Below are positions 3,366 to 63,955 of a stretch of DNA of 64,000 nt, piece after piece (position 1 is the stretch's first letter; each line of letters begins with the position of its first letter). The notes under the pieces are model-generated. The model made no database searches. It had not been told where the DNA came from and saw only the letters and a list, made by a program, of their open reading frames with translations. This DNA comes from Deltaproteobacteria bacterium UBA2409 (GTDB taxonomy: Bacteria; Bdellovibrionota_C; UBA2361; DDRT01): contig DDRT01000001.1 of NCBI GenBank assembly GCA_002343185.1, positions 400,215 to 464,214 on the forward strand, written 5' to 3'. The position numbers were made by a program, and so were the translations under genes.

Positions 3366-3525
3366 GTTTTACAACTACCTTTTAGAGGAAAACCTTCTCC
3401 TCTATTTATGTATATCGGTGTGGTTTTAAAAACCTTTAGAGTTTATATTCGATCTGGCGCTAGTGCTGTTAACACATTGAATTTATTGGATTATTTATTT
3501 TCATTTGGTAAGAAACGGCTAAAAT

Positions 3526-13989: not shown

Positions 13990-15894
13990 ATGCGTATGCA
14001 GCAGCGAGGGGCTGGCACACTTTTACTAATGGCGATCTTGGTTCCTGTTTTATTTTATGGAACCACGGTTGTGCTGTCGCTGTATAATATAAATGTTAGA
14101 AGGGGAGACTTACAAAGTACCCTAGAGCGAGCTCTGATGAAGGGAGCAAGATATCTTCCAGATTCAAGCGAGGCCGTTAGAGTTGCAAAAGAAGATCTTA
14201 GAAATAAATTTGGAGATTCATTACAAGTCATCGAAAAGAATAGATCTCCTTACACTATAGCCTTAGCAGTCCAGCAAACAACAAATAGAAAATTTGCAGT
14301 ACCTCTTTTTAAGACCGAAAGAGAGGTTAATTATAAAGAAGCAGCGCAAGCAAGAGTTACTGCTCAACCTAAAGATGTTTACATCTTCTTTGAGAACAGT
14401 AGCTATCTTGCTCCTCCGATTGAAAATGTTGGAACATCTAGTGCTTTCTATTGGGGGCAATCTGTAAAAAGAAATACGGAGAATGGGAAGTGGACTAGAA
14501 GGAATGATTTTGGTTACTTCGATACATTTATTGGCGTCACCTCTGCAAAACTTTTAGAGTATAACTCTAGAGGCAGATACGGATTCTCAACTGGTCAAAA
14601 CGGGCTACGCCAATTAATGTCAGTAATAACCCCTCACTGGCAATCAGCAGATCTATTTAAAGACCAGTCATTAAGAGCTGGCAGATTAAGAACAGTCTTA
14701 CGAACTAATAATGCGATCTCCCAAGCAGTTTTTACCCAATCTTGCTTTAACCCTATTCTTTCTTCGTTAAAAAAAGCATCGATTCACCTTTTAGATCATT
14801 TCTCAAGCTTTGAATTAAACCAGGTAGCAGTTGAAAGTGGACCAATATCTGGAGCTTCTCCTGGGCAGGATAGACTTGGAATACACGCCGATTCTGGTAA
14901 GCCCTTTACAATTCAAGAGATGACACAAGGTGGAGATCCTCAGCGAGTTGGGATAGCGAACCTAGAAAATAATAGAGGTGAGAAAATCGCTCATAACCGA
15001 AATGTTGAAGATAATCATAGGCTAAGAGTCAGAGATCAAGAATGTTGGGCTGCTCACGAGGTTGCTACAAGAAGGTGGACTCAGAATCAGACTCAGTCAT
15101 TTTTAGGTTCTGGAGAGATTGGGTCTACTATTTACGCAATTCCAAAACTCCCTAACTATTTCCGAAATACAGGTCTTGGAGGAGTTGGAACTAATATTTC
15201 AACGCCAATTCTTAGAGAAAGAAGATATGGAAGTAGACCAGTTAAATTTCATTATGAACTTGAAAGAGGGTCTATAAATAATCTTAAAACGAGGGAAGCT
15301 ATTTGGTCACGCAGTGTTGCTGAAGATTACAATAATGATACTAGAACCTCTCATGATACGATTAATTTTGAGCGTATTGTTAATAGGATTATTAATAAGC
15401 TTGTAGAAGCAAACCCTTCTGGTAATTTAGTAAGTCGAAGAAAGCTTGCAGGAAAGGCATTAGAAAAAAAAGCATTTATTCTTCTAGGCGACACTCCTCA
15501 CCTTAACATTGGCAACGGAAGACTTGATAATCTAAGGAGTGCCGGAACCAATAAAGACAGGTATTTCGAGGCTCTAAGAGAACAGCTAGTTAGATTAAGA
15601 GATTCAATGAGGGGAAGAAGCGGACGACTTAGTGTTTTAATTGTTATTCCAAGACATGAGGGAAGTTATTCTCAGGAGGTCTGTACTAACAACTGGACGT
15701 TCCCAGGAGAGCTTGTTTGTCAGGCATTTAGATCGGATATGGCTTTACTTCGAGATGAGATCTCTTCATGGACAAGAAACTGGAACAAGGTAGAAGTCAC
15801 AACAATTCCAGCAACTGATGTTGGAACGCTTGCTCTTGATTTGCTTTCATCATTAATCTCAAGTGGACAAAACTATGTATTATCGGATGTATAG
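13990..15894 (+). CDS. TadG-like (Flp-pilus-assembly / pseudopilin-like) large protein, 634 aa.
   Basis: The N-terminus has a short polar leader, then G-x-hydrophobic helix (RGAGTLLLMAILVPVLFYGTTVVLSLYN), typical of TadE/TadG-family proteins. It is followed by two TadE-like genes. Confidence 0.4.
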   Translation: MRMQQRGAGTLLLMAILVPVLFYGTTVVLSLYNINVRRGDLQSTLERALMKGARYLPDSSEAVRVAKEDLRNKFGDSLQVIEKNRSPYTIALAVQQTTNRKFAVPLFKTEREVNYKEAAQARVTAQPKDVYIFFENSSYLAPPIENVGTSSAFYWGQSVKRNTENGKWTRRNDFGYFDTFIGVTSAKLLEYNSRGRYGFSTGQNGLRQLMSVITPHWQSADLFKDQSLRAGRLRTVLRTNNAISQAVFTQSCFNPILSSLKKASIHLLDHFSSFELNQVAVESGPISGASPGQDRLGIHADSGKPFTIQEMTQGGDPQRVGIANLENNRGEKIAHNRNVEDNHRLRVRDQECWAAHEVATRRWTQNQTQSFLGSGEIGSTIYAIPKLPNYFRNTGLGGVGTNISTPILRERRYGSRPVKFHYELERGSINNLKTREAIWSRSVAEDYNNDTRTSHDTINFERIVNRIINKLVEANPSGNLVSRRKLAGKALEKKAFILLGDTPHLNIGNGRLDNLRSAGTNKDRYFEALREQLVRLRDSMRGRSGRLSVLIVIPRHEGSYSQEVCTNNWTFPGELVCQAFRSDMALLRDEISSWTRNWNKVEVTTIPATDVGTLALDLLSSLISSGQNYVLSDV

Positions 15895-16744
15895 TAGAGG
15901 AGCAACAATCCTTGAGATCTGTATGGGAATGATGATCATTCTCCCTGCATTTGCAGTAATAGTTGCAATTTCAGCGTATCTCTCATCTGTGAAAAGTGCC
16001 CGGAATATCTCCTTGGAACTAACAAGAAGCGTTGATATGTCAATGCTTGTTACTACAATGGGAAATCAGGATGCCTTTGTTAATCCATCAAAACTTGTCT
16101 GGGAAGATGAACTTCCTATTTTAGCTGAAAAAGTTTTTAGGCAGATGGATAATTTCTCAATCCCTGAAGGAGCAAAAAAAGCAGTTGTATTTGTTGCGTT
16201 TGATATTGCTGTTCATAACCAAACAGGTGTAGCAAAATCGGCAGACCTTCAAATTCCCTGGGATACCCTTAAGACGATGGATGGTAAAAGACCAACCATT
16301 GTTCCTCATGGAGATAGAGAGCTTTTTCGAGGGTCAGAGCTTGATAGAACTCTTCTGCCGATTAAAAGTCTAGTTGATACAATGAGAACACAGTATCTAA
16401 CTACAAAACTTGGGCATGTTTTTAGATTTGCAATTCCAGCAGGCGTTAGAGGTGTTGAGCAAGTTGCATATTATGGCTCTTCTCACATTTATCGTCCTGA
16501 TCATGGAACAGGTGAAGGTTGGTCTAACTTAGATGTCCACTCAAACTATCTTAGAAAAGCTCCTATAGTAGCAGTGACTGTACAGATCGATTTAACGGAA
16601 ACAAGAACCGGGAAACTTTTATCGACCGTTGGTAACCTAGGGTGTTCAATAATTGGAGTTGATGCTAATGATTGCAGAGTTCGCTTACCATTAAATCTGC
16701 GAGTTGGATCTTCAAAGTTTATTGAACCTAGAAATGTTCTTTAG
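15875..16744 (+). CDS. TadE-like protein (about 290 aa).
   Basis: N-terminus SRGATILEICMGMMIILPAFAVIVAISAYL resembles the TadE N-terminal domain. The track start at 15863 overlaps the upstream gene, so an internal Met start is likely. Confidence 0.4.
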   Translation: MYYRMYSRGATILEICMGMMIILPAFAVIVAISAYLSSVKSARNISLELTRSVDMSMLVTTMGNQDAFVNPSKLVWEDELPILAEKVFRQMDNFSIPEGAKKAVVFVAFDIAVHNQTGVAKSADLQIPWDTLKTMDGKRPTIVPHGDRELFRGSELDRTLLPIKSLVDTMRTQYLTTKLGHVFRFAIPAGVRGVEQVAYYGSSHIYRPDHGTGEGWSNLDVHSNYLRKAPIVAVTVQIDLTETRTGKLLSTVGNLGCSIIGVDANDCRVRLPLNLRVGSSKFIEPRNVL

Positions 16745-17232
16745 TTGAAATCATCGTCATCTACGCCGTTGCCGTCGTAGTCTTTTTGTTTAAAATATGA
16801 TTTTGCTTTTAATGCTGAGTGGGCATCTTCAATAGTTACCTGAGCAGATCTTGTAACTGTGTAGCTTTCAGCAAAAATAACCCCATTAATAACTCCAGTT
16901 CCAATGAGCCGAGCAAGCTCTCTTCCTTGAATGGTTTCTCTAGTAATTGTCACATCAAAACAGGGGATCTTCCCATCAGAGCAGCTAAATGCAGCAGATG
17001 GAAGAAGTTTATTTAAAGACCGATATGCAGCCTGTCTTGCTTCAAGAATTCTCGAATCCTCAGAGTGAGATGAGCTAGAGGCTGGTCTTCTGTAATAATC
17101 ACTTGCTATCTCAATAGCGGTTTGGATTGCACTTGATGCTTTATAGAATCTAAATATCTCCACCATCCCAACAGATAGAACAATTAATGGGACAGCTACT
17201 AGAGCGGTTTCAAGTACGGCAAAGCCACGCAT
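16741..17232 (-). CDS. TadE-like pseudopilin (163 aa).
   Basis: N-terminus MRGFAVLETALVAVPLIVLSVGMVEIF matches the TadE-family G-A-x-x-E-x-A-L-x-x-P pattern. It is convergent with the previous gene (4-nt overlap of stops). Confidence 0.5.
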   Translation of the reverse strand: MRGFAVLETALVAVPLIVLSVGMVEIFRFYKASSAIQTAIEIASDYYRRPASSSSHSEDSRILEARQAAYRSLNKLLPSAAFSCSDGKIPCFDVTITRETIQGRELARLIGTGVINGVIFAESYTVTRSAQVTIEDAHSALKAKSYFKQKDYDGNGVDDDDFN

Positions 17233-51569: not shown

Positions 51570-53674
51570 CTTCTTTTAAACCACCAGTTGAAAATAGATT
51601 TTAGGTTGAACAGAGATCTAAATGTTTCAAATTTTGAAAGATTGAGACCTGTCTGGACTGGCTTTCCTATCCTACGTAGTTTTAGCGAAGTAGGAAGCCT
51701 GTCCTTAGTAAAGGTCAGTCTAAAGACTGACCAGACAGGATTTTTGTTTTTATACTTTTCTTCATTCAATAATTTTATAAACTCTTCGAGATCGGAACCA
51801 TGAGATTTACGAACTCTTTTAATAAAGTTTAAGCGAGTTTCCCCATAGTTTCGTTTAAATCCTATGTCCATAAGTTTAGCAAAGACTCCAATTTTAAGAA
51901 GGGATGGGAATAGTAAATACCCCTTCAGTAATAAGATCTTAGATAAAACAACAAAGAAGAATAATGTCGCAAACATGATTACTAATGCTGGCTTTAGCCA
52001 GGCAAATGAAAACGAAGTACTTTCGGAGTCTTTTTTAGCTGGAAGTTCAGGAACTAGCTCTTCAGCAGGGTTAACAAGATTCATAAGCTCTTCAAGTAAA
52101 CCTTGATCGACCTCAGTATCAGCATGGCTTTCAACCTGAAGGGGCTGTGTATCAAAGGCTATCCACCCATAGTCTTGAAAATAAACTTCGGCCCATGCGT
52201 GTCTGTCGCTCATTCTAAGTAATATATGTCCATCTTTAGCTTGGCTTAAGTCAGTAAGGTATCCAGTAGCGATTCTAGATGGAATTCCAATTGCACGAAG
52301 CAGATAAACAGTTGCATGGGCAATATGAACGCAGTACCCACGACCATCCCCAAAAAGATAAGGTGCAACTGGATCGTCCGATGCAGGATGGTTTGGAGTA
52401 AGAGTATAAATTGTAAACTGTGCAAGGTAATCCACGATTCTTTTAATAGAATCAAACGGAGTAGGGGAGTCAGCAGTAATTTTTTTTGCTAGCTCGTGAT
52501 ACCTGGGATCTGTGTGTGCTGCTAAGTAGTTTGCACGTTTATTGTTGTCCCAAAGTGGATCTCCGACTGGTGTGTTTCTTAGAGTTTCAAGCTTTAAGCC
52601 TAACGAAAATGAGAGTGCTCTATAGGCGCCACCTTTAAATCTTCCAGGATTAGGATTTTTGAGCGGGGTTAAAAGTTTTGGATAATCAATCGCAAATGGA
52701 TTTTTATGATCTGCTAAAAGATAGATCTCTTGGGTTAACTCAGATCTACTTATCACTTCCTTTCTAACTTGAGAAAATGAAACGCTTGGCGAATCTCGGC
52801 TTATATCATCGTCAATGCCACTTAAAACAAGCTCTTTACCATTATACTTTGAAAGTGCTGACTCTCTTAGATAAAGCATAGGCGATGTAGGGTTCATCGT
52901 ATAATCACTTTCAAGCCTTACAAGTCCTGCTGGTTGATTTGTGCTGCCTAAAGCTGATTCAAATGTTAGTGGGCTTAACCCTTCTTCTGAGCCTTGGCCA
53001 ACACCGTTACTAAAAAAGGCTTCTCCTTTTTCCTGATAGTATCTTGAGATTCCAAAGAATGAGAGATAGCCGATAAGTAGAAAAATAAATGTTGATAAGA
53101 AGATTCCAAATATTGAAAGTCGCTTGGAAATAGCAGCTCTTTGGTCATTAAATTGTCTAACAGAAAGCGCTCCATATATGACAGCTAGTAATGCCACGAT
53201 AACTCCAAATGCTGAAAATGTTGTTAGTGGAGAAACTCCTAACTGCCAGGAGAGATCATTTATAATTTTCGGCATATCAAGTTGTAGATTTCTGTGAGTA
53301 GCTAAAGAGCCAACTACAACCGTCAGTATCAGTCCAAGCTCTACTAAAAATGCAGCTCTATATTTTTTAACTGCCCAAGTTAGAATGAAAGTTAAAAAGA
53401 AGATAAACATTACTGCTTGAAGATGTAAGAATATGGAGTATGACTTTAAACTTGAATTTCCAAAGAGAGCTAAGATTAGGCCAACCAAGTTGATTGATAG
53501 GGCTCCTCCGATTGTTGTTATTAACAAAACACCAAGTAATTTTAGGTTAGAGGCTCTGCTGCCAACTATAACTCCACCTAAGATTCCAATCGATAGAATG
53601 GCAGGGTGAGTCCCGAATGGAAGCACAAAGTCCACTGCAACTATTGCCATTGTTAGAAGGAGAAAGCGCATCAC
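51563..53674 (-). CDS. Transglutaminase-like membrane protein (DUF3488 / TGase core architecture).
   Basis: Multi-TM N-terminus, and a TGase catalytic triad context (GRGYCVHIAHATVYLLRAIGIP … DRHAWAEVYF … WIAFD). The last ~60 codons run through the family-2 repeat at 51648-51739. Confidence 0.7.
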   Translation of the reverse strand: MMRFLLLTMAIVAVDFVLPFGTHPAILSIGILGGVIVGSRASNLKLLGVLLITTIGGALSINLVGLILALFGNSSLKSYSIFLHLQAVMFIFFLTFILTWAVKKYRAAFLVELGLILTVVVGSLATHRNLQLDMPKIINDLSWQLGVSPLTTFSAFGVIVALLAVIYGALSVRQFNDQRAAISKRLSIFGIFLSTFIFLLIGYLSFFGISRYYQEKGEAFFSNGVGQGSEEGLSPLTFESALGSTNQPAGLVRLESDYTMNPTSPMLYLRESALSKYNGKELVLSGIDDDISRDSPSVSFSQVRKEVISRSELTQEIYLLADHKNPFAIDYPKLLTPLKNPNPGRFKGGAYRALSFSLGLKLETLRNTPVGDPLWDNNKRANYLAAHTDPRYHELAKKITADSPTPFDSIKRIVDYLAQFTIYTLTPNHPASDDPVAPYLFGDGRGYCVHIAHATVYLLRAIGIPSRIATGYLTDLSQAKDGHILLRMSDRHAWAEVYFQDYGWIAFDTQPLQVESHADTEVDQGLLEELMNLVNPAEELVPELPAKKDSESTSFSFAWLKPALVIMFATLFFFVVLSKILLLKGYLLFPSLLKIGVFAKLMDIGFKRNYGETRLNFIKRVRKSHGSDLEEFIKLLNEEKYKNKNPVWSVFRLTFTKDRLPTSLKLRRIGKPVQTGLNLSKFETFRSLFNLKSIFNWWFKRRW
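51648..51739. repeat. Family-2 palindromic element with perfect terminal inverted repeats CCTGTCTGG … CCAGACAGG. It is embedded in the 3' end of the transglutaminase-like ORF.
   Basis: It shares the GGACTGG…AGCGAAGTAGGA…GGTCAGTCT…AGACTGACC architecture with the 6951 and 35773 elements. Confidence 0.65.
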
Positions 53675-54801
53675 TCTACTATTGTAGTTTCAAAACCTGC
53701 CTGTCTACAAACTGTAGCTAGCTCTACAGTTGGCTCTTCAATAATTTGGGTTTCCGAGTCAAATAGAAATCTGGCAAACCCTGATTCGCCAAAGCTCTTA
53801 AAGCTCTTTGATGGCAGGAATATATGAAGATTAGATATTCCCACCAGCTTTTCAACTTCATTACTTATAAACAAAGCCACAATTGCAGCATCTCCTATAA
53901 AATCTCTTAACTCTGTTACTAAGCTAGCCTCATCAGATTTGAAACTTGAACCAATTAAGCCAAGCTCAAAGCTTTCTGCTGTTTCAAAGGTTTCCTTTGA
54001 TCCGAGGCAGCCTGCACGAATTTTAGTTCCCGTAGCTTCAACTTCATAGGCATACTTTAAGGCAAGGCCTGCTAGATAATCATCATTTTTTCTAGCTGCA
54101 CAAAAAATAAGCACCTCGCCCTCTGGCGCATGAGAAAACTCAGGTTGTCTAGTTATTAACTCTCCACTCTTAGCAAATGTTTTCCAAAGAATTCGTTTCA
54201 TTGAGTCACCAGGTTGATATGGCCTTAAATCAAATGGCTCACCAAGTCTTTCTGTTGAAAGTGGGTAGGCGTCTCCTGGGATGATAGAAGACGAAAGTAT
54301 TGGGAGTGGACGAGTTTCAACTGAAGGAACTCTAGAGATTACTGAAGTTTTTATAGGAACAGATACTGTAGCACTAAAAAGCCTAAGTTTGTCTTGAATT
54401 TCAAAATAAACTCCATCAAGGAGCCACTCCCCTCTATGAGGGGTAAAAATAGTGAATTGGAGTATCTCTGATTCAGGGGAAATTCTTGTTTTATTTTCTA
54501 ACTTGTATGGGATATTTATATTCAGTCTTAAAAAAACATCAAATAGAAAGAAACTGGGAATCTCAACTTTAAAAGAAATTTTAGGAGGATTGATCGACGT
54601 TCCCTCAACAAGATCGTTAGCTAGCTCAATTTTAGGATAATATTTAATCTTAGTTATAAGTAGGTAGGAGCCAATTATAATAAAGCTCAGTAAAAGTGTT
54701 AAAAGAATCCCTGTAGTAATTAGATCCGAGTAGAACCATGATGGTACGATCAGGGTAACCAATCCAAGTAAAACTAAAAATCCAATACTACTAAGGCGCA
54801 T
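53671..54801 (-). CDS. DUF58-family protein (MoxR-associated vWA-like).
   Basis: DUF58 motif DLRPYQPGDSMKRILWK, N-terminal 2-TM anchor, and 4-nt overlap with the downstream transglutaminase gene. Confidence 0.65.
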   Translation of the reverse strand: MRLSSIGFLVLLGLVTLIVPSWFYSDLITTGILLTLLLSFIIIGSYLLITKIKYYPKIELANDLVEGTSINPPKISFKVEIPSFFLFDVFLRLNINIPYKLENKTRISPESEILQFTIFTPHRGEWLLDGVYFEIQDKLRLFSATVSVPIKTSVISRVPSVETRPLPILSSSIIPGDAYPLSTERLGEPFDLRPYQPGDSMKRILWKTFAKSGELITRQPEFSHAPEGEVLIFCAARKNDDYLAGLALKYAYEVEATGTKIRAGCLGSKETFETAESFELGLIGSSFKSDEASLVTELRDFIGDAAIVALFISNEVEKLVGISNLHIFLPSKSFKSFGESGFARFLFDSETQIIEEPTVELATVCRQAGFETTIVE

Positions 54802-55020: not shown

Positions 55021-56769
55021 TCAAGTGCCAAGCCCATTCATTTTCAATAAATCCCTAACCCTCTTTTTAAGAGGTAAAGATTCTTTAAAAACTCTTATTT
55101 TGCCCCCAGTTTCATTAGATTCAAAAACAGTAATGATAACTTTTCTATGAGATGGCATAACATCTTTAAAAGTCACAAAGCTCTTATTTTTAAATGACTT
55201 TTTTTGGATAGCTAGTGTTCGGATTTTAATCTCAGCATGCAAACCCTTAGCTAAATGGTTCGATCTAACAATCTGAATTCTGCCTGCTCTCTTTAGACTG
55301 CTGAATTTTAATCTTACCTCGAATGGATCGGCATGGATGGTTGGAGTCGGAATAGGAGAATTGGTATATGTTGGTGAATTGGTGGGGGTCGGTGAGCTGG
55401 ATGGTGTTGGGGAGTTGGTGGGTGAAACCGAGGTCGGAGTATTAGTAGGAGTTGACGTAGAAGTTGCTGGAAGATTAGTAGGGGTTGCTGTTCTGGTATG
55501 GGTTGGCGTTCTAGTAGGAGTAGCCGTTGCTGGAAGAATTGTTGGAGTTGGGGTTGCTGTAGCTGGAAGAGTTGTTGGAGTTGGAGTCGCTGTTGGCGTC
55601 CCCTCGCTTACACTTGCAAGACAAGAGCTATAGTTGTTATCCGCTAAAAACGAATTCCATGCATTCAAGCTCGCAGTGCTATATTCTCGGTCATTTCCAG
55701 TTGCTCCTGGAGACATTACGTATTGAGTTGGCTCTGAGTCGTGTCCACCAGTGCTTGCATTATATGCACTTAGAGTGTGAAACATTTCATGTTCGATAAT
55801 ACTAGCATTTCCAGCAATCGTACTGTAGTAGGTTATACTTCCTCCGCTGTTTGAACCAGTTTCTTGAACATGGCATACCATGGACATCGAATTAAATGGT
55901 AACCAAGTCATTAGCGCATAACCGATTGGCCCACTGCTGTAGTTTCCAAGTATAATGTGATTCAGATCTGAGATAATATTATATGTTGAAATATAGGATT
56001 TAAGAGAATTTACATTGGCAGTTATGTCCGTTCCTCCTGTAAAAGGTGAAGTAGTCGGGTTGAATGTTATCGAAAGGACATTAATTGTTGCTCCCAATCT
56101 TGTACGAATTCGCGCATCAACATGATTGATATATTGAAGCAGTAAATTTTCTGAATCTTGTCCCCATCGTTGATGATATTCAGGGGTGGTAAAAAATCTC
56201 ATTTCAATCTCTCTTAGATCGCCCCCATTCATTGTAGAAAAACCAGGATTGATATGAACATGATTATAGTTAGGGAGGCTCTCTGGGGAGTCAGATACAG
56301 GAACGTTCAAGGGGTGAGAAATAACTTTAATTTTGTCGATATGATTTTTTTTACTCAGCTTTTTATTTTCTGCAAACTTGATCGTAATTTGGCATACTCT
56401 ACTTTTGTTGCACCCTTCGTAGCTTGTTGTAATCCTGTATCCTTTCTTGCGCTTCTCAATAGCAATCCCAACGGGATAGTATTTCTTTTCTCTCCCTATT
56501 CTCTTAATAACTAAACCTTGAGCTAGGGCGATGTTTTCAATCGAACGAATCGTCGAGAAACGATTTGCTTCTATTGTTATATTGCCTCTCCCAGAAAATC
56601 TTTTTAATTTTCTATTACGTCCTAGTACTTTCATCAAAAGGGAAGTTGAGTTTGCTGATACAGTGTTTGTCCGCTCAAGTTTGCTTTTTAGGTTGGGGCT
56701 GATTAGTACTATCGGATCAGCATGGGCAACTAGTGAAAACATTAGCAGCACTACAAAGACTTGCCTCAT
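55021..56769 (-). CDS. Secreted zinc metallopeptidase (HExxH) with a Thr/Pro-rich linker and a C-terminal domain.
   Basis: Signal peptide [17 protein letters not shown], zincin motif [10 protein letters not shown], roughly 90-aa linker ([20 protein letters not shown]…), and a C-terminal ~100-aa basic domain. Confidence 0.5.
55340..55615. repeat. Low-complexity tandem-like codon repeats encoding the Thr/Pro linker.
   Basis: Reiterated ACN-CCN codon units. The + strand antisense reads as a spurious Gly/Val ORF. Confidence 0.6.
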
Positions 56770-56916: not shown

Positions 56917-58575
56917 CTATCGAACCAAGTATGGCTCATTCTCAGCTGTGTCGTCAGCACTTGGGAATACCTTGGATCTGCAATCGATGCGTGCTCTGAC
57001 TAGATTGCACGGCCTTACTGATTCAGCAGGTGTTGTAAAAGAAAAAGGATTTTGAGTGCTCGGATTAAAGTCTTCTTGTATAAGCCCGGCGCAAGATCTA
57101 AGCTCTTCGCTCGTTGAGGATATACTTGGAAGTGAAGCTACACTCCCAATATCGAAATCATAAATGTAAGCAGTGATAAATCCTACAATCTTGTACTCTG
57201 TGCTTGCAGAGACTGTCCCAGAACAGCCTTCACTGGAAGCAATTATCGGAACTCTAGCTTTCCAAACATTCGAATCAGGCATAATTCCTAAATCTGGTGA
57301 GCAGCCACCATTTGATTCAAGGGCTACCCCTTGAAAATGATTCCAATCTGTTCCCCATCCGGTTCTAGCAGAGCCGCATACTCCAAATTGGTTTATTCGA
57401 GGTCTTCTTACATCCTCAGAACAAAAACTCTGATCTCTATCACTTATAAAAGATCTATTTGTAAATTGAATTATATCGGACTCTAAAGATCGAAAATTCA
57501 CACTACTTTCATTATGGCCCATTACTAGGTTAGAGAGCCTGTCTTTTAAGCTGATATCAGTTAATCCATTTTTTAAAACTCCAAAGGAGTCTCCGATTTT
57601 TGTATCTCCAAGGCAGCCATTTTCAGAATTAAGAATAGGAAGAACTGCGTCGATTGATGCTTCACCGACTACACCTGGAGCTCCGACTACCCCAAAATTT
57701 TGACTTGGAACCTCATAACTTGGTGATAGATAAGAGCAGCTATTTATGCTTAGCCCCTGAGGGGTTTCAATCGGCCCCGGCCCCCAGTTTAAATAATCCC
57801 AGTGCTCTACGTTTAGTGCAGTCATGACGTCCATCACATTTGGAATGAGAGAGTAATTAAAATCAGGAATGACGTTACAGTTTTCTCCTGGAGGACAGTA
57901 TCTATTTGATTCAGTAAAAAGCCTGTCAGCCCTACAGATCATTTTTTGGTCGAACCCTCCATCTTGGTCAAGCATTGAGCATAGTGGAATTGCAAAAGGA
58001 GCTGAGCATTCTCCTTTTGATGGTGGCTTTGCAACTGAAATACTTTCTGATGAAACCGAAAGTGCTCCATAAAGAAATGAGGGTAAGAAAGAGAGAATTG
58101 ATTCTCGCTCTAGACTTATTTTTAAAGCATTGTAAACCATAAAGTTTGGAGTGCCCGGGTTTAGCTCTTGCCACTCATGTTCAAGAACTTCAAATGAATC
58201 AATCCATCTGCCTCGCTCGATTTTTATTTTTACCCCTTCAGTCTCCCATTCAGTTGAATTTTGAGCCTCATCAAGACTTCCTTCGGACCCTGTTAGTTCT
58301 CGCTCTATATATCTTAGTGCTGTAATTCTTGATTTATTGAAACATTCTTTAGAAGAGCATGTCTCTCTAGCTCCAATTTTTGCAGAAATATCAGAAAGCG
58401 TTTGATACTTTACATCAAGGTATTTAATGTAAAGTAAAGATACTGCAAACGCTATAACAACTAAAAATACAGGAAGTATTATAACAAGGTATGGAAGAAC
58501 AATTCCATTATGTGCAGCCGACGGGGTTTTCAATTTTTCCAACAAAGCTCTTTTTAACCTGAGAAAGTGTTCCAA
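56917..58575 (-). CDS. TadG-like large pseudopilin-related protein (552 aa).
   Basis: N-terminal hydrophobic helix (IVLPYLVIILPVFLVVIAFAVSLLYI) after a short polar leader. It follows two TadE-like genes on the same strand. The start may be downstream of 58575 (overlap with the upstream ORF). Confidence 0.35.
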   Translation of the reverse strand: MEHFLRLKRALLEKLKTPSAAHNGIVLPYLVIILPVFLVVIAFAVSLLYIKYLDVKYQTLSDISAKIGARETCSSKECFNKSRITALRYIERELTGSEGSLDEAQNSTEWETEGVKIKIERGRWIDSFEVLEHEWQELNPGTPNFMVYNALKISLERESILSFLPSFLYGALSVSSESISVAKPPSKGECSAPFAIPLCSMLDQDGGFDQKMICRADRLFTESNRYCPPGENCNVIPDFNYSLIPNVMDVMTALNVEHWDYLNWGPGPIETPQGLSINSCSYLSPSYEVPSQNFGVVGAPGVVGEASIDAVLPILNSENGCLGDTKIGDSFGVLKNGLTDISLKDRLSNLVMGHNESSVNFRSLESDIIQFTNRSFISDRDQSFCSEDVRRPRINQFGVCGSARTGWGTDWNHFQGVALESNGGCSPDLGIMPDSNVWKARVPIIASSEGCSGTVSASTEYKIVGFITAYIYDFDIGSVASLPSISSTSEELRSCAGLIQEDFNPSTQNPFSFTTPAESVRPCNLVRARIDCRSKVFPSADDTAENEPYLVR

Positions 58576-58861
58576 GATATGGGGAAAAATTTACAGTAAA
58601 CTCTAAGAAAAGACCATCATTTCCAAACCTCTCCCCCTCAATCAATACAGAATCTCCGAGGTTTTGGTCTATATTCTCTCTAGCAACCTCAAGACATTCT
58701 CCTTCTTCTGCGATAGTGGTTTCTCTAAAGGCATTGAGCATAGCAAGTTCAATCTCTGATTTTTTAACCCAGCATGCTGTATAAATGAGGCTTCCAAAGA
58801 TTAAAGTAAGTATTATTGGAATTATGATAGTAGCCTCAAGTAGCACATTACCCCGTTGCAT
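58508..58861 (-). CDS. TadE-like pseudopilin.
   Basis: MQRGNVLLEATIIIPIILTLIFGSLIY matches the TadE N-terminal pattern. The start is set at the internal Met. The track ORF extends to 58966. Confidence 0.5.
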   Translation of the reverse strand: MQRGNVLLEATIIIPIILTLIFGSLIYTACWVKKSEIELAMLNAFRETTIAEEGECLEVARENIDQNLGDSVLIEGERFGNDGLFLEFTVNFSPYLGTLSQVKKSFVGKIENPVGCT

Positions 58862-59276
58862 GACGTATCCCCCTAGTATTGCAGCTCGATGTATTATTAA
58901 TAAGTCCACTCTTAAGAACTGCGGTTGATGAAACTTTGACGGGTAAAAGATTAAAAGCCCCACCATCTTTATTAATCTTAATATTTAGTCGTGCAGGGTT
59001 AGAAGAGGTGAGATTAATCTCAACATTTAATTCGGAGACCGGAATATGATCTGCCGACAAACTACTATATATTATGTCTCTTGTCTGTTGGCAGACAGTC
59101 TCATCTATGTTGCCGATTTTCATCACCTCAAATGAAGATCTTCTTAACGAATCTTGGATTGTTATCATTTGGTTTAAATTAAAAAGGGTATTAAGTGTCG
59201 TAAAGGTAAGGAAAATTAAAAGAGGTAGCCCAATAGCTGCCTCAATTAATGCTGCACCTTTTTGTGATGACACCAT
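58848..59276 (-). CDS. TadE-like pseudopilin (142 aa).
   Basis: N-terminus SQKGAALIEAAIGLPLLIFLTF. Confidence 0.5.
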   Translation of the reverse strand: MVSSQKGAALIEAAIGLPLLIFLTFTTLNTLFNLNQMITIQDSLRRSSFEVMKIGNIDETVCQQTRDIIYSSLSADHIPVSELNVEINLTSSNPARLNIKINKDGGAFNLLPVKVSSTAVLKSGLINNTSSCNTRGIRHATG

Positions 59277-59348
59277 GTTCAGATATCCAATAATGGATAA
59301 ATTCTGTGTCCTATAATCTTATTAATTTACTCAATATCCAAAGTATTC

Positions 59349-60707
59349 CTAGTTCCTCCTCCCTGTATTTCTTAGTAATCCTAAAGCAATTTGTGGCTGA
59401 TTATTAGCTTGAGCAAGAACAGAAGCCCCAATATTTTGGAGAATCTGTTTTCTTACTAGCTCTGCTGATTCATCAGCAATATCTGCATCCTTAATTCTGC
59501 TTTCTGCTGCTATTGTGTTTTCTCTGGCAGAGAATACCTGATTAAGAGCAACTCCAAGTCTACTCATCATCGCTCCAAATGTGCCTCTTAGAGTGTTAAG
59601 GCTATCTAGCCTGTTTCTTAGTATTGTTAAGCTGTCTCTACTACGCTGGGCGGTTTCAACTCCCGTAAAGTCTAAGGCGGTTTGGGTAGACTGATCCTGG
59701 TTTACTGAGAATGTAAGGCCACTAAAATCTAGATCTAAGTCAGCTGATGCACCATCCATTGTGAGACCTACATTGTAGGAAGTGCCAGAATTTGAAGATG
59801 TGCCAATCACTCTCCCTGTAGATTCATCGAAAGTAACAGTAAAGTCGTTACCGGAACCGAAAACACCTCCATCTGATACGGTAGCATAATCCCACTGACC
59901 ATTTTGGTTCTTAAAGAAAAGCGCAAAAGAGACAGCAACCTGACCTGAATTGGTATAAGAACTTCCAAAGCTTCCATCATCGCTATAATCGAAAGCCGCG
60001 ATTGCTATTTCATAGGAACGCCCATCACTTCCAGCAACGGTAGTATAGAAAACACCGCTAAAAACTGAAGAAGGATCTCCCCCACTTACAGCAGAAATTA
60101 TCGCATCAAAATCTGCCGCATCTAATTCGCCATCAACGTTTGAACCGTAGGTTCCGGATCGAATGGTACTAAGATTAAAATGCCCACTTAAAAAAGAAGT
60201 ATCACCAGTTCTAACACTTAAAAGTGAATTAGAAGCACCAGTAATTCCAGCTTGAAGTGTGAGTTCTCTTAGTCCATCAGATCTGTCTCCTCGAAGGAGT
60301 TTTAATCCATTAAAGATGGTTGAATCAGCTATTCTTGCAAATTCTTTCTGTAAGGCGCGGTACTCATTTTGAAGACTAGCCCTTTGGGTAGTTGAATAAG
60401 TTCCATTTGCTGATTGTTCAGCAAGTTCTAAAAGTCTTGTAACGATACCAGTTTGGCTACCTAGAGCTGAGTCAGCGATGTTTAAAAGCGATAGCCCATC
60501 ACTTATATTTCTTGAGGCTGTGCTATATAGCCTTGAATCAGCATTAAGAGATGTTGCAACTGCAAGACCTGCCGCATCATCGCTTGCTCTATTAATTCTC
60601 ATTCCAGAAGAGAGTCGTTCGTAGGTGCGCTCAAGCGAGCTTGTAGTATCGCTTAATCTTCTTTGAGCCCCTAGTGAGGGTATGTTTGCACCAATCCTTA
60701 TGCTCAA
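59349..60707 (-). CDS. fliC: Flagellin.
   Basis: Conserved flagellin N-domain (…LSSGMRINRASDDAAGLAVA…SRNISDGLSLLNIADSAL…) and C-domain (…LVRKQILQNIGASVLAQANNQPQIALGLL). TTG start preceded by AAGGAG. Confidence 0.85.
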   Translation of the reverse strand: MSIRIGANIPSLGAQRRLSDTTSSLERTYERLSSGMRINRASDDAAGLAVATSLNADSRLYSTASRNISDGLSLLNIADSALGSQTGIVTRLLELAEQSANGTYSTTQRASLQNEYRALQKEFARIADSTIFNGLKLLRGDRSDGLRELTLQAGITGASNSLLSVRTGDTSFLSGHFNLSTIRSGTYGSNVDGELDAADFDAIISAVSGGDPSSVFSGVFYTTVAGSDGRSYEIAIAAFDYSDDGSFGSSYTNSGQVAVSFALFFKNQNGQWDYATVSDGGVFGSGNDFTVTFDESTGRVIGTSSNSGTSYNVGLTMDGASADLDLDFSGLTFSVNQDQSTQTALDFTGVETAQRSRDSLTILRNRLDSLNTLRGTFGAMMSRLGVALNQVFSARENTIAAESRIKDADIADESAELVRKQILQNIGASVLAQANNQPQIALGLLRNTGRRN

Positions 60708-60735: not shown

Positions 60736-60763
60736 GAATCGGGATTAAGTTAGTGAGCTTTAG
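60736..60763 (-). promoter_or_regulatory. Candidate sigma-28 (FliA)-type promoter for the flagellin gene.
   Basis: Minus-strand reading: TAAAG-N14-CCCGATTC, versus consensus TAAA-N15-GCCGATAA. It lies about 30 nt upstream of the flagellin start. Confidence 0.35.
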
Positions 60764-60899: not shown

Positions 60900-61680
60900 T
60901 TAGTGAGGGACTAATCCTTAAGTTTACTCATTAGCTCTTCTCTAAAGCTATCAATCCAATATTGTTTTACGTTCTCATCAAGATGTAAGACTGACCCTTC
61001 CCCATGTTTTTCTTTTAGATATGCTCTTTATCCCTCAAACATAAGATCCCCAACTCGATTAACTTCGGCTTCGACTGCCTCAATCCCGTTATTGTCCTTT
61101 GTACCGGGCAGAGTATAGTAATCCTTACCAGTCACAAGTTTAAAAGCGGTGTCATAGCACCTTGAGCTATTTGTTATTGTCATTTTATGGACTGGACCTT
61201 CATGAGTTTCGATAATAGCGGATTCATCCGGCCGGTCGCTAACATCTTTTATCTTGGCTCTACGTAGATCGTTTGCATAATTTATAGCTTTTTTAACATA
61301 TAATTCATCAATATCGTTTCCGAGCCCTGAAGAAGATCTAAAGATCTCGATATTCCGATCATCAATTTTTTTGACTTCTTCTACTAACCTATCTTTAATA
61401 CTTGGGACACGAGCAACAAAAATACGCTCTTCCTCTGATAGAGATCCTCCACCTGTTTCAAGGCGAGCATGCAGTGAAGTAAGTCTCTCTTGAATTAATT
61501 CACGAAGGTCAAGAATCTGCTCTTTTTTGTTTTAGTAGAGTCTGACTCTCCCCCAGCAACTTCTCTTAGTACTTTTATAACCGCATCTAGTTTTTCAACG
61601 TCTAAAGTAATGAGAGAGTAATCTCCCATGCACTTAGCTAGATCAGTAACTTTAGGAGTATTCTCTATCATGGTCCTCTA
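60900..61680 (-). pseudogene. Coding remnant interrupted by at least two frameshifts. No intact ORF of 60 aa or more, although protein-like translation continues across three frames.
   Basis: Manual translation, minus strand: MIENTPKVTDLAKCMGDYSLITLDVEKLDAVIKVLREVAGGESDSTKTKK then a frame change (at the A-run AAAACAAAAAAG), then NKKEQILDLRELIQERLTSLHARLETGGGSLSEEERIFVARVPSIKDRL…EAEVNRVGDLMFEG then another frame change, then RAYLKEKHGEGSVLHLDENVKQYWIDSFREELMSKLKD*. The upstream 62-aa track ORF (61652-61840) may be part of the same unit. Confidence 0.4.
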
Positions 61681-61935
61681 AGCATATGAGCTCGATAAAT
61701 CGCTCTAAGTTCTCTATCTCATTAATGGCGATTAGAATTTTTTGTATATCCTCATCCACTTTAGATGATATGCTCAAAAAATCTATATCAGTGTCTTTAA
61801 AGGATAAAACTTTCCCAATTTGAGAGTTTTTCTTATACACCCCTACTGTAGCTCTAAGTATAACTAGGAAAATCTTCTACACCTTACTAATCACTTTCAT
61901 CATTTTGAAAGTCTCAAGCGCTTAAATGTTCAGGT

Positions 61936-62495: not shown

Positions 62496-62729
62496 TTACT
62501 CAGGGCAAAGCTCAGGATCGCAATTTGATTCACATTTAAGACATAAATCAGAGCCTGAAAAAGTTTCACGAACATTTTCTTCTCTTCTTTGAAAAGCACC
62601 AAATAAAAACAAAGCTGCTAATGTCATCACTACAAGAATAAGTACAAATGCTAAAACTGATTCTGGAATAACAGCGCCGAGTTGTTTATCCGACTGGAGT
62701 GGCTTTATTGTCCCCCGTAGTTTTTTCAC
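62496..62729 (-). CDS. Small single-pass membrane protein (77 aa). Candidate Flp-family pilin-like protein with a Cys-rich C-terminal tail.
   Basis: Leader MKKLRGTIKPLQSDKQLG, then AVIPESVLAFVLILVVMTLAALFLFGAF (Gly before a hydrophobic helix, with Glu at +5 as in Flp/type-IV pilins), then CLKCESNCDPELC. 4-nt ATGA overlap with the upstream 409-aa gene. Confidence 0.3.
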   Translation of the reverse strand: MKKLRGTIKPLQSDKQLGAVIPESVLAFVLILVVMTLAALFLFGAFQRREENVRETFSGSDLCLKCESNCDPELCPE

Positions 62730-63955
62730 AATACTTGCATCGTATAAGTTAGATAGTTTCTGTAAAAGTTTAACGCCCTATCGTAAATATTAGGCTTAAT
62801 ATCAGGATTATATAAAAGATCCCGCCAAAATCTATTTACCTCGCTAGGTTTATACTCTCCTGTGCCAGGGTCGTAGCTATTCTGACAGTAGCTAGGATAT
62901 ATGAACTCTCCAGATTCATTTCTTTCACATGGTTCAATACTTAAGACTGAATTTAAACCAGGTCTACCAAGTTGATTATTTTCAAGGAGATCTTTGAGCT
63001 CAGTTGCTTCACTTAATTTTGTCATGCTGTATGGGAAGAGCACTAACCTGATAGGTCTTATTGGTCCTGCACTTCCGACAATGTTAGGAGTGCTAGTTTG
63101 GTACCATTCTCCAAGCTCTCTTACTAATCTAGAGGTTAGGTTGTGAGCAACTAAGATCAAGATTGGAAAATCGTTAATTCTATCTAGTTTATCCTGACCC
63201 TCAAATATTGAAATACTACCAGGCGCGACTGGGCCAAGAGCTCCAGGGTTACTAAGAGCCGATCCCCCTGACCAATACTGGGCTAGTCCTTTTATATCAG
63301 GGTCTATTCGTACGTCTTGTGTTTCTTTGCAGAACATATCTAAAAGAGAGCTGCGGTAAGGGCATAATCTAAGAGCACCTATCTGTGATAAGAGCTCCGA
63401 TGCTGTTACAGGAGGTATAATTTCTCCATCATATTGCCAGGAAATCTCAGATTGATTGATCTCAAACTCGGTTGCAGCGTTAAAGTTTGTAGGCTCTGTG
63501 ATTCTAGATACAGAGTATGGGGAGTTAAAAGGTTTGCCCCCACTAGCATAGAGATGAGTACACTGAGGGATCTGAGCTAATGTTAAAGCTCGAACCTCTT
63601 CGGCTCCTGTTGCTGCTGTAAGATTACCTCCAAGGCTTATTTTATTTAAAATCCCATTGATTTCATAATCATAACCTGAAACTTTGAACCCTCTGTAGTT
63701 AATGAGCGAGTACGGTGCTCTAAATGATTGTTTTGTTAAGTCCATGCCCTTCTCTACTGCCAAAGTTGGTGGCACGTTAAAGTCACCACTTTCTCCATCG
63801 ACTGTACTGTTTACAAACAGGACTTCAGTCGAATGTCTAAATCGTCCATCTCGGGCCAAAATTTCCATTAATGCAGATAGAAATGCATTTCTAACCATTG
63901 CAACTGGGTTAAGGCACGATTCTTTTCTGGCTGTAACTTCCGGAGGTTCTCCCAT
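62726..63955 (-). CDS. Hypothetical protein (409 aa or more; the N-terminus may extend beyond the annotated start toward the window end).
   Basis: Long clean ORF with no recognisable motif. Co-directional with, and overlapping, the small Cys-tail membrane protein. Confidence 0.45.
   Translation of the reverse strand: MGEPPEVTARKESCLNPVAMVRNAFLSALMEILARDGRFRHSTEVLFVNSTVDGESGDFNVPPTLAVEKGMDLTKQSFRAPYSLINYRGFKVSGYDYEINGILNKISLGGNLTAATGAEEVRALTLAQIPQCTHLYASGGKPFNSPYSVSRITEPTNFNAATEFEINQSEISWQYDGEIIPPVTASELLSQIGALRLCPYRSSLLDMFCKETQDVRIDPDIKGLAQYWSGGSALSNPGALGPVAPGSISIFEGQDKLDRINDFPILILVAHNLTSRLVRELGEWYQTSTPNIVGSAGPIRPIRLVLFPYSMTKLSEATELKDLLENNQLGRPGLNSVLSIEPCERNESGEFIYPSYCQNSYDPGTGEYKPSEVNRFWRDLLYNPDIKPNIYDRALNFYRNYLTYTMQVL

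What the first reader, a model, noticed from the sequence alone, without database searches (positions are those of the whole stretch)
56917..59276. Two separate TadG/TadE-like pseudopilin triads with no Tad secretion machinery nearby; the second sits beside flagellin
Locus 1 is 13990-17232 (634-aa TadG-like, 293-aa TadE-like, and a convergent 163-aa TadE-like gene). Locus 2 is 56917-59276 (552-aa TadG-like plus two TadE-like genes on one strand). Each encodes one large and two small proteins whose N-termini fit the TadE/TadG pattern: short leader, Gly, then a hydrophobic helix beginning G-A-x-x-E/L-E. Neither locus has cpaF/tadA, tadBC, rcpA or a prepilin peptidase within reach. Locus 2 is followed on the same strand by flagellin and preceded by a secreted HExxH protease. 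Duplicated minor-pilin modules detached from their machinery suggest either a dispersed Tad system or repurposed pseudopilin-like proteins. For the large ones, that could be vWA-type surface adhesins.
Basis: partly seen in the sequence, partly recalled or inferred. Interest (0 to 1): 0.55.

Follow-up and report, generated by a model that had tools for sequence, protein, structure and literature searches.

The report
Detached Tad pilus tip-pilin gene triads
The flagged genes most likely encode the three-protein cap ("tip") of a Tad adhesion/predation pilus whose assembly machine lies elsewhere in the genome, an arrangement already described in predatory bacteria, so this is an ordinary new example with a few unusual details.

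Summary
Locus 2 (56917-59276, minus strand) is a real three-gene operon with overlapping genes. It has two small TadE/TadF-type minor pilins, both with an invariant Gly-x4-Glu prepilin motif. The third gene is a 541-552 aa TadG/KilN-type large minor pilin.

The large protein has no direct Pfam hit. It belongs to a family of 226 clusters. Of 78 aligned members, 58 hit Pfam Tad (PF13400) and 17 hit Tad_C (PF09977). None hits vWA.

The triad recurs as a unit in Bdellovibrionota MAGs and other metagenome contigs, never beside Tad machinery. None lies anywhere in this 64 kb window.

This matches the detached "Tip" minor-pilin clusters of the Myxococcus Kil/Tad pilus and the dispersed tad genes of Bdellovibrio bacteriovorus.

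Locus 1 (13990-17232) fits only through its N-terminal motifs. Its large domain is an orphan.

Extras:
- A Flp-like pilin ORF lies at 62496-62729.
- Flagellin is linked to the triad in several lineages, with a sigma-28-like promoter upstream of it here.

Verdict: new member of a known kind. The vWA idea is not supported.

The parts
58848..59276 (-). Locus 2 gene A: a 142-aa TadE/TadF-type minor pilin. Leader MVSSQK, then G|AALIE and a hydrophobic helix.
   Evidence: ORF. Pfam TadE 20.9 bits, E 4e-4, just below the cut-off of 22.9. Orthologues sit in the same position in 9 loci with invariant Gly7 and Glu12. Homologues pass the TadE cut-off.
58508..58861 (-). Locus 2 gene B: a 117-aa TadE/TadF-type minor pilin (MQRG|NVLLE...). 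Its start overlaps the end of gene A by 14 nt.
   Evidence: Sequence and Shine-Dalgarno site. Nine orthologues share invariant G4, E9, P15, C56 and C116. Orthologues in L007 and L009 pass the TadE cut-off at 26.7 and 24.3 bits.
56917..58575 (-). Locus 2 gene C: a 541-552 aa TadG/KilN-type large minor pilin. It has a short basic leader, a conserved Gly without Glu at +5, a long alpha-1 helix, a small beta-sheet head, and a large Cys-rich distal domain. Its start overlaps the end of gene B.
62496..62729 (-). A 77-aa Flp-like small pilin ORF (leader, then G|AVIPES, a hydrophobic helix and a Cys-rich tail CLKCESNCDPELCP). It is a candidate filament or adapter pilin for the triad.
   Evidence: Motif scans. 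A 48%-identical homologue lies directly between flagellin and the triad in L001. No Pfam hit, so the assignment rests on motif and synteny only.
13990..15894 (+). Locus 1 large gene: a 634-aa protein with a TadG-like N-terminus (MRMQQRG|AGTLLL...) and an orphan C-terminal region.
   Evidence: Only 4 homologues, all at least 70% identical. hhalign matches the locus-2 large family only over residues 4-63, E 3.7e-5, probability 71%. No Pfam, NCBIfam or PDB sequence hit.
15887..16744 (+). Locus 1 middle gene: a 285-aa protein with a class-III signal (MYSRG|ATILE...). Its start overlaps the end of the 634-aa gene.
   Evidence: The motif is conserved in L004 and L005. hhalign to locus-2 small pilins matches only the N-terminus and is weak (E 1.6e-3). 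No Pfam hit.
16741..17232 (-). Locus 1 small gene: a 163-aa TadE-like protein (MRG|FAVLE...), convergent with the other two genes.
   Evidence: Pfam TadE 19.2 bits, E 1.3e-3, below the cut-off. Conserved in L004, L005 and L006 in the same position.
59349..60707 (-). Flagellin gene immediately upstream of locus 2 on the same strand. The gap is 72 nt with no terminator-like site. This is context and a possible co-transcription partner, not a pilus part.
   Evidence: Pfam Flagellin_N and Flagellin_C. No terminator-like site between 59349 and 59276. Flagellin is also adjacent in L002, L001 and L014, and within about 4-6 kb in L024 and L009.
60738..60762 (-). Sigma-28-type promoter-like site (TAAAG-N15-CCGAT), about 30 nt upstream of the flagellin start codon.
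   Evidence: The same motif sits upstream of flagellin in L002 and about 100 nt upstream of the second triad in L024. This is a consensus match only.

Best explanation
**What locus 2 is.** Locus 2 encodes the minor-pilin tip complex of a Tad (type IVc, Flp) pilus.

**Proposed mechanism (inferred).**
- The two small proteins are TadE/TadF-type prepilins. A TadV/CpaA-type prepilin peptidase would cut them after the conserved Gly.
- Their Glu5 would dock them under the next subunit in the filament.
- The large TadG/KilN-type protein has the same membrane-embedded alpha-1 helix but no Glu5, as expected for the subunit that caps a type IV filament.
- The three would form a heterotrimer that primes polymerisation of a Flp-type pilin. 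The machine doing this (TadA/CpaF, TadB/C, RcpA) is encoded elsewhere in the genome.
- The disulfide-rich distal domain of the large subunit would be displayed at the pilus end for contact with a surface or a prey cell.

**Other pieces.**
- The Flp-like ORF at 62496-62729 may be the matching filament or adapter pilin.
- Locus 1 is probably a second, structurally different tip set for the same machine.

**Shown here.**
- Gene structure.
- Family membership through homologues.
- The prepilin motifs.
- The fold model.
- Conservation of the triad as a unit.
- Absence of Tad machinery in the window.

**Inferred, not shown.** Processing, trimer formation, location at the pilus tip, and the existence of the machine elsewhere in the genome.
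For: **Operon structure.** The three genes overlap.

**Small proteins.**
- Gly and Glu+5 are invariant in 26 small proteins from 10 loci plus the window.
- 18 of these 26 hit Pfam TadE.

**Large protein.**
- Its family has 226 clusters.
- 58/78 members hit Tad/PF13400 and 17/78 hit Tad_C/PF09977.
- Gly is conserved in 69/78 and the +5 residue is never Glu.
- Ten Cys are conserved.
- The model (pLDDT 89) shows a long N-terminal helix, a beta-sheet, then a large domain.

**Conservation of the triad.**
- The small-small-large triad recurs in L001, L002, L003, L007, L009, L014, L020 and L023. In L024 the two small genes lie divergent from the large one.
- No Tad machinery was seen in those flanks.
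- L024 carries two tandem triads.

**Flp-like ORF.** In L001 its homologue lies directly upstream of the triad.

**Published precedent.**
- PMC12075869 describes four kilLMN (TadE/F/G-like) clusters in Myxococcus xanthus; one lies within kil-gene cluster II and three are separate clusters. They form interchangeable heterotrimeric tips. KilN has no PDB analogue and many disulfides, and small Flp adapters KilK/KilO are associated.
- In Bdellovibrio bacteriovorus the tad genes are dispersed, with a lone tadG whose depletion impairs prey invasion.
Against: **Sequence evidence is indirect.**
- None of the window's six proteins passes a Pfam cut-off on its own. Membership rests on homologues and motifs.
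- No Tad machinery, prepilin peptidase or Pfam-recognised Flp pilin could be shown for this genome, because only 64 kb is visible.
- Homology to Myxococcus KilN or to Bd0148 was not tested, because no sequences were available.

**Locus 1 is weak.**
- It links to the family only through about 40-60 N-terminal residues.
- It has a different gene order.

**Neighbourhood hints at other roles.**
- In the three closest loci the triad is followed at 36-42 nt by DUF58, transglutaminase and TPR genes.
- It is preceded by flagellin.
- Either neighbour could point to a different functional context.
Confidence: 0.75

Rival explanations
1. The locus-2 triad is not a pilus part. It is a pilin-like, membrane-anchored periplasmic complex that works with the DUF58, TgpA-type transglutaminase and TPR genes downstream. 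These resemble a MoxR/Bat-type envelope module, and the triad would sit where MoxR or vWA partners usually sit.
For: - The order triad, DUF58, Transglut_core, TPR on one strand is conserved in the window, L002 (80% identity) and L001 (44% identity). Intergenic gaps are only 36-42 nt in L001 and L002.
- MoxR (AAA_3) is in the window but about 5 kb from the TPR gene at the end of that module (about 9 kb from DUF58), at 43665-44633.
Against: - The linkage is absent from every more distant family member: L003, L007, L009, L014, L020 and L024.
- In the window itself a 582-aa protease gene separates the two groups.
- The invariant Gly-x4-Glu motif implies prepilin-peptidase processing and filament docking.
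- Pfam places the family in Tad/Tad_C.
Confidence: 0.07
2. The triad serves the flagellum, for example as a sheath or filament accessory, or for export or anchoring. It is co-expressed with flagellin for that reason.
For: - Flagellin is directly adjacent in the window, L002, L001 and L014. L014 is only 32-34% identical and has a different orientation.
- Flagellin lies about 4-6 kb away in L024 and L009.
- A sigma-28-like promoter precedes flagellin, and there is no terminator-like site before gene A.
- A sigma-28-like site also precedes the second triad of L024.
Against: - No flagellar protein family is detected in the triad proteins.
- The family signatures are Tad, TadE and Tad_C.
- Several family loci have no flagellin in their flanks (L003, L007, L020).
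- Shared sigma-28 or attack-phase regulation would explain the linkage without a shared structure. That point is an inference from general knowledge of Bdellovibrio attack-phase regulation, not tested here.
Confidence: 0.05
3. Locus 1 (13990-17232) is not a pilin module. Its three proteins only share generic signal-anchor-like N-termini, and the window therefore contains just one true triad.
For: - There is no Pfam hit for the 634-aa and 285/293-aa proteins.
- TadE scores only 19.2 bits for the 163-aa protein.
- Profile comparisons align only the first 25-60 residues, with probabilities of 2-71%.
- Gene order and orientation differ from every locus-2-type triad.
- The family is tiny: 4 homologues, all at least 70% identical.
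Against: - Both small proteins carry an Arg-Gly-x4-Glu motif followed by a hydrophobic helix and a helix-kinking Pro, and this is conserved in L004 and L005.
- In the window this motif occurs only in the triad genes and the Flp-like ORF.
- The large protein has the TadG-type Gly without Glu5.
- The one-large-plus-two-small composition is conserved as a block in three relatives.
Confidence: 0.3

Closest known systems
Myxococcus xanthus Kil (Tad-like) pilus Tip complexes KilL/KilM/KilN, Tip1 to Tip4 (Herrou et al. 2025, PMC12075869)
   Same: - Three-gene clusters encode two smaller and one large TadE/F/G-like minor pilin.
- There are several paralogous clusters per genome, most of them detached from the machinery genes.
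- The large subunit has a pilin-like N-terminus and a distal domain with no PDB analogue and many Cys.
- A small Flp-like adapter gene (KilO) sits beside one cluster. Here the Flp-like ORF sits beside the triad in L001.
   Different: - The paper's HMMs found Tip1-4 only in Myxococcota, so this family is a different sequence lineage.
- Direct homology to KilN was not tested.
- The large subunits here lack Glu at +5 throughout the family.
- The linkage to flagellin and to DUF58/TgpA/TPR has no counterpart in the passages of the Myxococcus paper read here.
- No functional data exist for this family.
Bdellovibrio bacteriovorus HD100 dispersed Tad system with a lone tadG (Bd0148), modelled with Bd0114/Bd0115 as a tip (PMC12075869 supplementary file list; bioRxiv 10.64898/2026.07.08.737194)
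   Same: - The closest taxonomically labelled relatives of the window's large protein are Bdellovibrionota MAGs.
- The tad genes are scattered.
- The tip pilin is encoded away from the machine.
- A Tad pilus is needed for prey invasion.
   Different: - In HD100 the isolated locus is described as a lone tadG. The modelled tip partners Bd0114 and Bd0115 carry gene numbers far from Bd0148 (their location in the main tad locus is my inference). Here the whole triad is detached, and there may be two.
- Sequence relationship to Bd0148 was not tested.
- The taxonomy of the window's organism is inferred, not shown.
Canonical TadE, TadF and TadG of Aggregatibacter, Caulobacter and Pseudomonas tad loci (Pfam PF07811, PF13400, PF09977)
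   Same: - The N-terminal class-III signal is Gly-x4-Glu in the small proteins.
- The large protein has a Tad N-terminal domain and, in part of the family, Tad_C.
- The same one-large-plus-two-small composition is present.
   Different: - Canonical genes sit at the end of the tad operon, next to tadA to tadD.
- Some TadG proteins carry a vWA domain, and this family does not.
- The window's own proteins fall below the Pfam cut-offs.
Type II secretion tip pseudopilins GspK-GspI-GspJ
   Same: - A heterotrimeric cap has one large subunit lacking Glu5 on top of two small Glu5-bearing subunits.
   Different: - It belongs to a different machinery and a different pilin class.
- There is no sequence relationship.
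- This is an analogy in how it works, not family membership.

Membership tests
TadE/TadF minor pilins (Pfam PF07811) | N-terminal class-III signal: short basic leader, Gly, Glu at +5, then a hydrophobic helix | tested here: met
   All four small proteins carry it. Gly and Glu+5 are invariant in 26 small proteins. In the window the motif is restricted to these genes plus one Flp-like ORF.
TadE/TadF minor pilins (Pfam PF07811) | Score above the Pfam gathering cut-off (22.9 bits) | tested here: inconclusive
   Window proteins score 20.9 bits (gene A) and 19.2 bits (163 aa), with no hit for gene B or the 293-aa protein. Positional orthologues pass at 36.6, 26.7 and 24.3 bits. Of 26 small proteins, 18 hit at E<=0.01.
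TadE/TadF minor pilins (Pfam PF07811) | Cleavage by a TadV/CpaA-type prepilin peptidase | not testable with these tools
   No peptidase A24 gene is in the window. The rest of the genome could not be read.
TadG / KilN-type large minor pilin (Pfam PF13400 Tad + PF09977 Tad_C) | Tad N-terminal domain | tested here: met
   The 552-aa protein has no direct hit. However, 58 of 78 aligned family members hit PF13400, best E 6.4e-10. L007 and L009 orthologues score 22.3 and 21.6 bits. For the 634-aa protein there is only an hhalign match to this region.
TadG / KilN-type large minor pilin (Pfam PF13400 Tad + PF09977 Tad_C) | Tad_C C-terminal domain | tested here: inconclusive
   17 of 78 family members hit PF09977, best E 5e-9. 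The window protein itself does not. The 634-aa protein shows no similarity beyond residue 63.
TadG / KilN-type large minor pilin (Pfam PF13400 Tad + PF09977 Tad_C) | Pilin-like alpha-1 helix and beta-sheet head followed by a large distal domain | tested here: met
Tip-type minor-pilin cluster (Kil/Tad, PMC12075869) | Three co-oriented minor-pilin genes conserved as a unit, possibly detached from the machinery and present as paralogous sets | tested here: met
   The triad is conserved in 9 independent loci without machinery genes in the flanks. L024 carries two tandem triads.
Tip-type minor-pilin cluster (Kil/Tad, PMC12075869) | Heterotrimer with an alpha-1 helix bundle, and a requirement for pilus formation | not tested
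Tip-type minor-pilin cluster (Kil/Tad, PMC12075869) | Sequence or structural homology to KilN or Bd0148 | not tested
   No KilN or Bd0148 sequence could be obtained. The paper's models exist only as long coordinate files in its supplement.
vWA-domain TadG-type adhesins | von Willebrand A fold with a MIDAS motif | tested here: not met
Flp/Fap pilin (Pfam PF04964) | Short prepilin with Gly-x4-Glu-Tyr and a Pfam match | tested here: inconclusive
   The 77-aa ORF at 62496-62729 has G|AVIPES followed by a hydrophobic helix. It has a homologue next to the triad in L001. It has no Pfam hit at E<=1e-3 and carries Ser instead of Tyr at +6.
MoxR / DUF58 / TgpA (Bat-like) envelope module | Conserved co-occurrence of the triad with DUF58 and transglutaminase genes | tested here: not met
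   The linkage holds only in the window, L001 and L002. It is absent in L003, L007, L009, L014, L020 and L024.

The most novel reading that the evidence does not exclude
In one lineage of Bdellovibrionota-like bacteria the pilus-tip triad has become a passenger of a flagellin transcription unit. It would be driven by a sigma-28-type promoter and followed by DUF58, TgpA and TPR genes. Tip pilins, flagellar filament and an envelope-remodelling module would then be made as one attack-phase package. In the more radical version, the triad has been recruited to a non-pilus role at the flagellated or sheathed pole. Separately, locus 1 would be a structurally new tip type whose 634-aa cap has no detectable relative outside one genus.
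Probability: 0.12. Interest if true: 0.55.

Novelty: new member of a known kind. Interest (0 to 1): 0.3.

Why it matters
It adds a sequence family of 226 clusters at 50% identity. These are TadG/KilN-like tip pilins that current Pfam and NCBIfam models largely miss in this clade. The family includes genomes with two or more sets, which supports the recent idea that Tad pili are customised by interchangeable tip complexes.

For annotation, these "hypothetical" triads can be named as Tad minor-pilin tip genes rather than vWA adhesins.

The recurrent flagellin linkage and the Flp-like ORF with a Cys-rich tail give testable leads on how tip sets are regulated and attached. No new principle is involved.

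Tried and rejected
**Structure and fold searches**
- AlphaFold with only 5 homologues gave an unusable model (pLDDT 34). It was redone with 78 sequences.
- The afdb50 fold library was unavailable. Foldseek on PDB found nothing.

**Homologue and locus searches**
- A third homologous-protein run with the 78-sequence profile returned only the known close hits, so no source names were obtained.
- The listing of cluster members gave no informative names or accessions (only one "hypothetical protein").
With a smaller alignment it gave only 4 loci, so no large-scale neighbourhood statistics were possible.
- P0001 itself was not on record for contig look-up.

**Locus 1 comparisons**
- Profile-profile comparisons of locus-1 small proteins with locus-2 small proteins matched only the N-terminal motif.
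- PDB sequence searches with both large-protein profiles were empty.

**Regulatory and RNA scans**
- Sigma-28-like motifs were sought upstream of every triad and found only before the second triad of L024.
- The sigma-70 promoter and terminator scans were uninformative.
- Rfam and tRNA scans of the window were empty.

**Ideas rejected**
- The vWA idea was rejected for the reasons given above.
- The idea that the triad belongs to the DUF58/TgpA module was rejected because the linkage does not extend beyond close relatives.
Full report
**1. What is in the sequence**

Locus 2 lies on the minus strand and consists of three overlapping genes.
- Gene A (59276-58848, 142 aa) begins MVSSQKG|AALIEAAIGLPLL.
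- Gene B most likely starts at ATG 58861, behind an AGGGGGA ribosome-binding site. It encodes 117 aa beginning MQRG|NVLLEATIIIP, and its start overlaps the end of gene A by 14 nt.
- Gene C runs from TTG 58575 or 58542 to 56917 (552 or 541 aa). Its start overlaps the end of gene B.

Locus 1 has a different layout.
- A 634-aa gene lies at 13990-15894 on the plus strand.
- A 285-aa gene overlaps its end (start 15887, MYSRG|ATILE).
- A convergent 163-aa gene lies at 17232-16741 (MRG|FAVLE).

The four small proteins have Gly-x4-Glu. The two large ones keep the Gly and the hydrophobic helix but have no Glu at +5.

A strict scan of all 118 ORFs of at least 60 aa in the window found this signal in three of the four small triad genes and in one further ORF. 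That ORF is a 77-aa Flp-like gene at 62496-62729. The 163-aa gene has the motif but missed the strict filter because of a second Glu later in the helix. The pattern is therefore not generic signal-anchor sequence.

**2. Family membership**

None of the six proteins passes a Pfam or NCBIfam cut-off directly. TadE scores 20.9 bits for gene A and 19.2 bits for the 163-aa protein, against a cut-off of 22.9. The others have no hit.

The word-indexed database returned only five relatives of the 552-aa protein and four of the 634-aa protein.

An exhaustive HMMER search with a profile of the 552-aa clade found 226 clusters at E<=1e-3, 117 of them at E<=1e-30. Most are 540-700 aa and align over their full length.
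- Of 78 aligned members, 58 hit Pfam Tad (PF13400, the TadE/G-like N-terminus).
- 17 hit Tad_C (PF09977) and 3 hit TadE.
- None hits vWA.

Of 26 small proteins scanned (22 from locus-2-type triads, 4 from locus 1), 18 hit TadE, best E 5.5e-10. Gly and Glu+5 are the only invariant columns apart from the start Met. Locus 2 is therefore a divergent but genuine TadE/TadF/TadG-type set.

**3. The large subunit**

- With the 78-sequence alignment, AlphaFold gave a confident model: pLDDT 89.2 and pTM 0.88.
- The model has a long helix (26-70), a second helix, a beta-sheet (about 107-181), then a large mixed alpha/beta domain.
- Foldseek on PDB found nothing, and PDB sequence search was empty.
- Ten cysteines are conserved across the family. 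The Gly is present in 69 of 78 members, and the +5 residue is always hydrophobic and never Glu.
- From established knowledge of type IV filaments, for example GspK, absence of Glu5 is expected for the subunit that caps the filament.

**4. Conservation and context**

The small-small-large triad is conserved as a unit in:
- close relatives L002 (80% identity) and L001 (44%);
- more distant contigs L003, L014, L020/L021 and L023;
- Bdellovibrionota MAGs L007 and L009;
- L024, where the two small genes lie divergent from the large gene.

- Planctomycetota carry longer relatives of the large protein.
- No T2SSE, T2SSF, secretin or A24 peptidase gene was seen in any of these flanks.
- None was seen on any sizeable ORF of the 64-kb window.
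- L024 carries two triads of this family side by side.
- L011 carries two large paralogues in tandem.

**5. Comparison with the literature**

Herrou et al. 2025 (PMC12075869) describe Myxococcus xanthus.
- It has four paralogous kilL/kilM/kilN clusters homologous to tadE/tadF/tadG. One lies within kil-gene cluster II and three are separate clusters.
- These form interchangeable heterotrimeric Tips of the Kil (Tad-like) pilus.
- KilN is a large pilin whose distal domain has no PDB analogue, and the Tips have many predicted disulfides.
- Small Flp-type adapters (KilK, KilO) are associated with them.
- The authors also model a Bdellovibrio tip from Bd0114, Bd0115 and Bd0148.

A 2026 preprint (10.64898/2026.07.08.737194) covers Bdellovibrio bacteriovorus.
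- Its tad genes are unusually dispersed.
- Depletion of that tadG impairs prey invasion.

The finding is thus the known kind of thing: detached Tad minor-pilin tip clusters in what is probably a Bdellovibrionota-like organism. The taxonomy is inferred from the nearest labelled relatives and is not shown.

**6. Locus 1**

- Its trio is conserved in three close relatives.
- Evidence that it is pilin-like is limited to the N-termini.
- hhalign aligns residues 4-63 of the 634-aa profile to the start of the large family (E 3.7e-5, probability 71%).
- The small proteins align only over the motif.
- The remainder of the 634-aa protein matches nothing.
- I rate it a probable second and structurally different tip set, at about 60-70%. 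The alternative that it is unrelated keeps about 30%.

**7. Neighbours**

Flagellin.
- It sits 72 nt upstream of gene A with no terminator-like site between them.
- A sigma-28-type motif, TAAAG-N15-CCGAT, lies about 30 nt before its start codon. The same motif precedes flagellin in L002.
- Flagellin is also directly upstream in L001. That contig begins with the flagellin C-terminus ...QPNIALRLLNGGRR*, followed by the Flp-like gene and the triad.
- It is adjacent and convergent in L014, and about 4-6 kb away in L024 and L009.
- This is more than I would expect by chance. However, the sample is small, and shared ancestry or shared sigma-28/attack-phase regulation would explain it.

Other neighbours.
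- The DUF58, TgpA-like transglutaminase and TPR genes follow the triad only in the three closest loci.
- The 582-aa HExxH protein is present only in the window. It is absent at this position in L001 and L002, so it is an insertion rather than a partner.

**8. Verdict**

- The TadE/TadG and dispersed-Tad interpretation is supported for locus 2 and plausible for locus 1.
- The vWA-adhesin suggestion is not supported.
- Novelty: a new member of a known kind.
- Interest is modest at 0.3. The only non-routine leads are the flagellin linkage, the Cys-tailed Flp-like ORF and the orphan 634-aa cap.

Noticed in passing
window 62496-62729 (-); L001 130-327 (+): A 77-aa Flp-like ORF has a G|AVIPES prepilin motif and a four-Cys tail (CLKCESNCDPELCP). 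Its 48%-identical homologue in L001 lies between flagellin and the triad. It has no Pfam hit. It may be the filament or adapter pilin, comparable to KilO.
   Followed up: partly
window 62726-63955 (-): A 409-aa ORF ends 4 nt inside the Flp-like ORF, so the two are probably co-transcribed. It has no Pfam or NCBIfam hit, no N-terminal hydrophobic segment and no homologue in any fetched locus.
   Followed up: partly
window 59349-60707 and loci L001, L002, L009, L014, L024: A flagellin gene lies adjacent to or within about 6 kb of the TadE/TadE/TadG triad in several lineages, in different orientations. L024's flagellin carries faint FG-GAP hits in its variable region.
   Followed up: partly
window 60738-60762 (-); L024 about 11900: A sigma-28-type consensus (TAAAG-N15-CCGAT) lies upstream of flagellin in the window and in L002. 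A similar site lies about 100 nt upstream of the second triad in L024. The window has only 4 such matches, against 1.3 expected by chance.
   Followed up: partly
window 59284-59299: A palindrome, TATCCA-TTAT-TGGATA, lies 8 nt upstream of the gene A start codon. It is kept as TATCCATATATGGATA in L002. It could be an operator or a small hairpin.
   Followed up: no
window 55021-56769 (-): A 582-aa secreted HExxH protein has a weak Reprolysin_5 hit (24.7 bits) and a long Thr/Pro-rich linker. It is inserted between the triad and DUF58 only in this genome. The antisense 98-aa ORF at 55337-55633 is a by-product of that repeat.
   Followed up: partly
window 49758-54801 (-) and 43665-44633 (-): A DUF58, TgpA-like transglutaminase and TPR gene block follows the triad. 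The MoxR-type AAA_3 ATPase that usually accompanies such a block lies about 5 kb further on. It is separated by a TonB-dependent receptor, TonB, an unannotated 252-aa ORF and a thiolase.
   Followed up: partly
window 61028-61840 (-): Three short ORFs (62, 58 and 51 aa) match successive parts of L002. Two of them fall within an intact 251-aa gene there (3473-4228) and one just upstream of it. This suggests a gene broken by frameshifts or stops between flagellin and the Flp-like ORF.
   Followed up: partly
L007 150-1739; L010 4395-8630: Large FG-GAP-repeat proteins lie directly upstream of family members. The one in L007 has a type IV pilin N-terminal methylation motif (N_methyl). These may be additional pilus-associated adhesins.
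   Followed up: no
L024 8937-14942; L011 106-5099: L024 has two complete triads of the same family side by side, the first with its small genes divergent from the large gene. A planctomycete contig (L011) has two large paralogues in tandem. Multiple tip sets per genome therefore occur in this family.
   Followed up: partly
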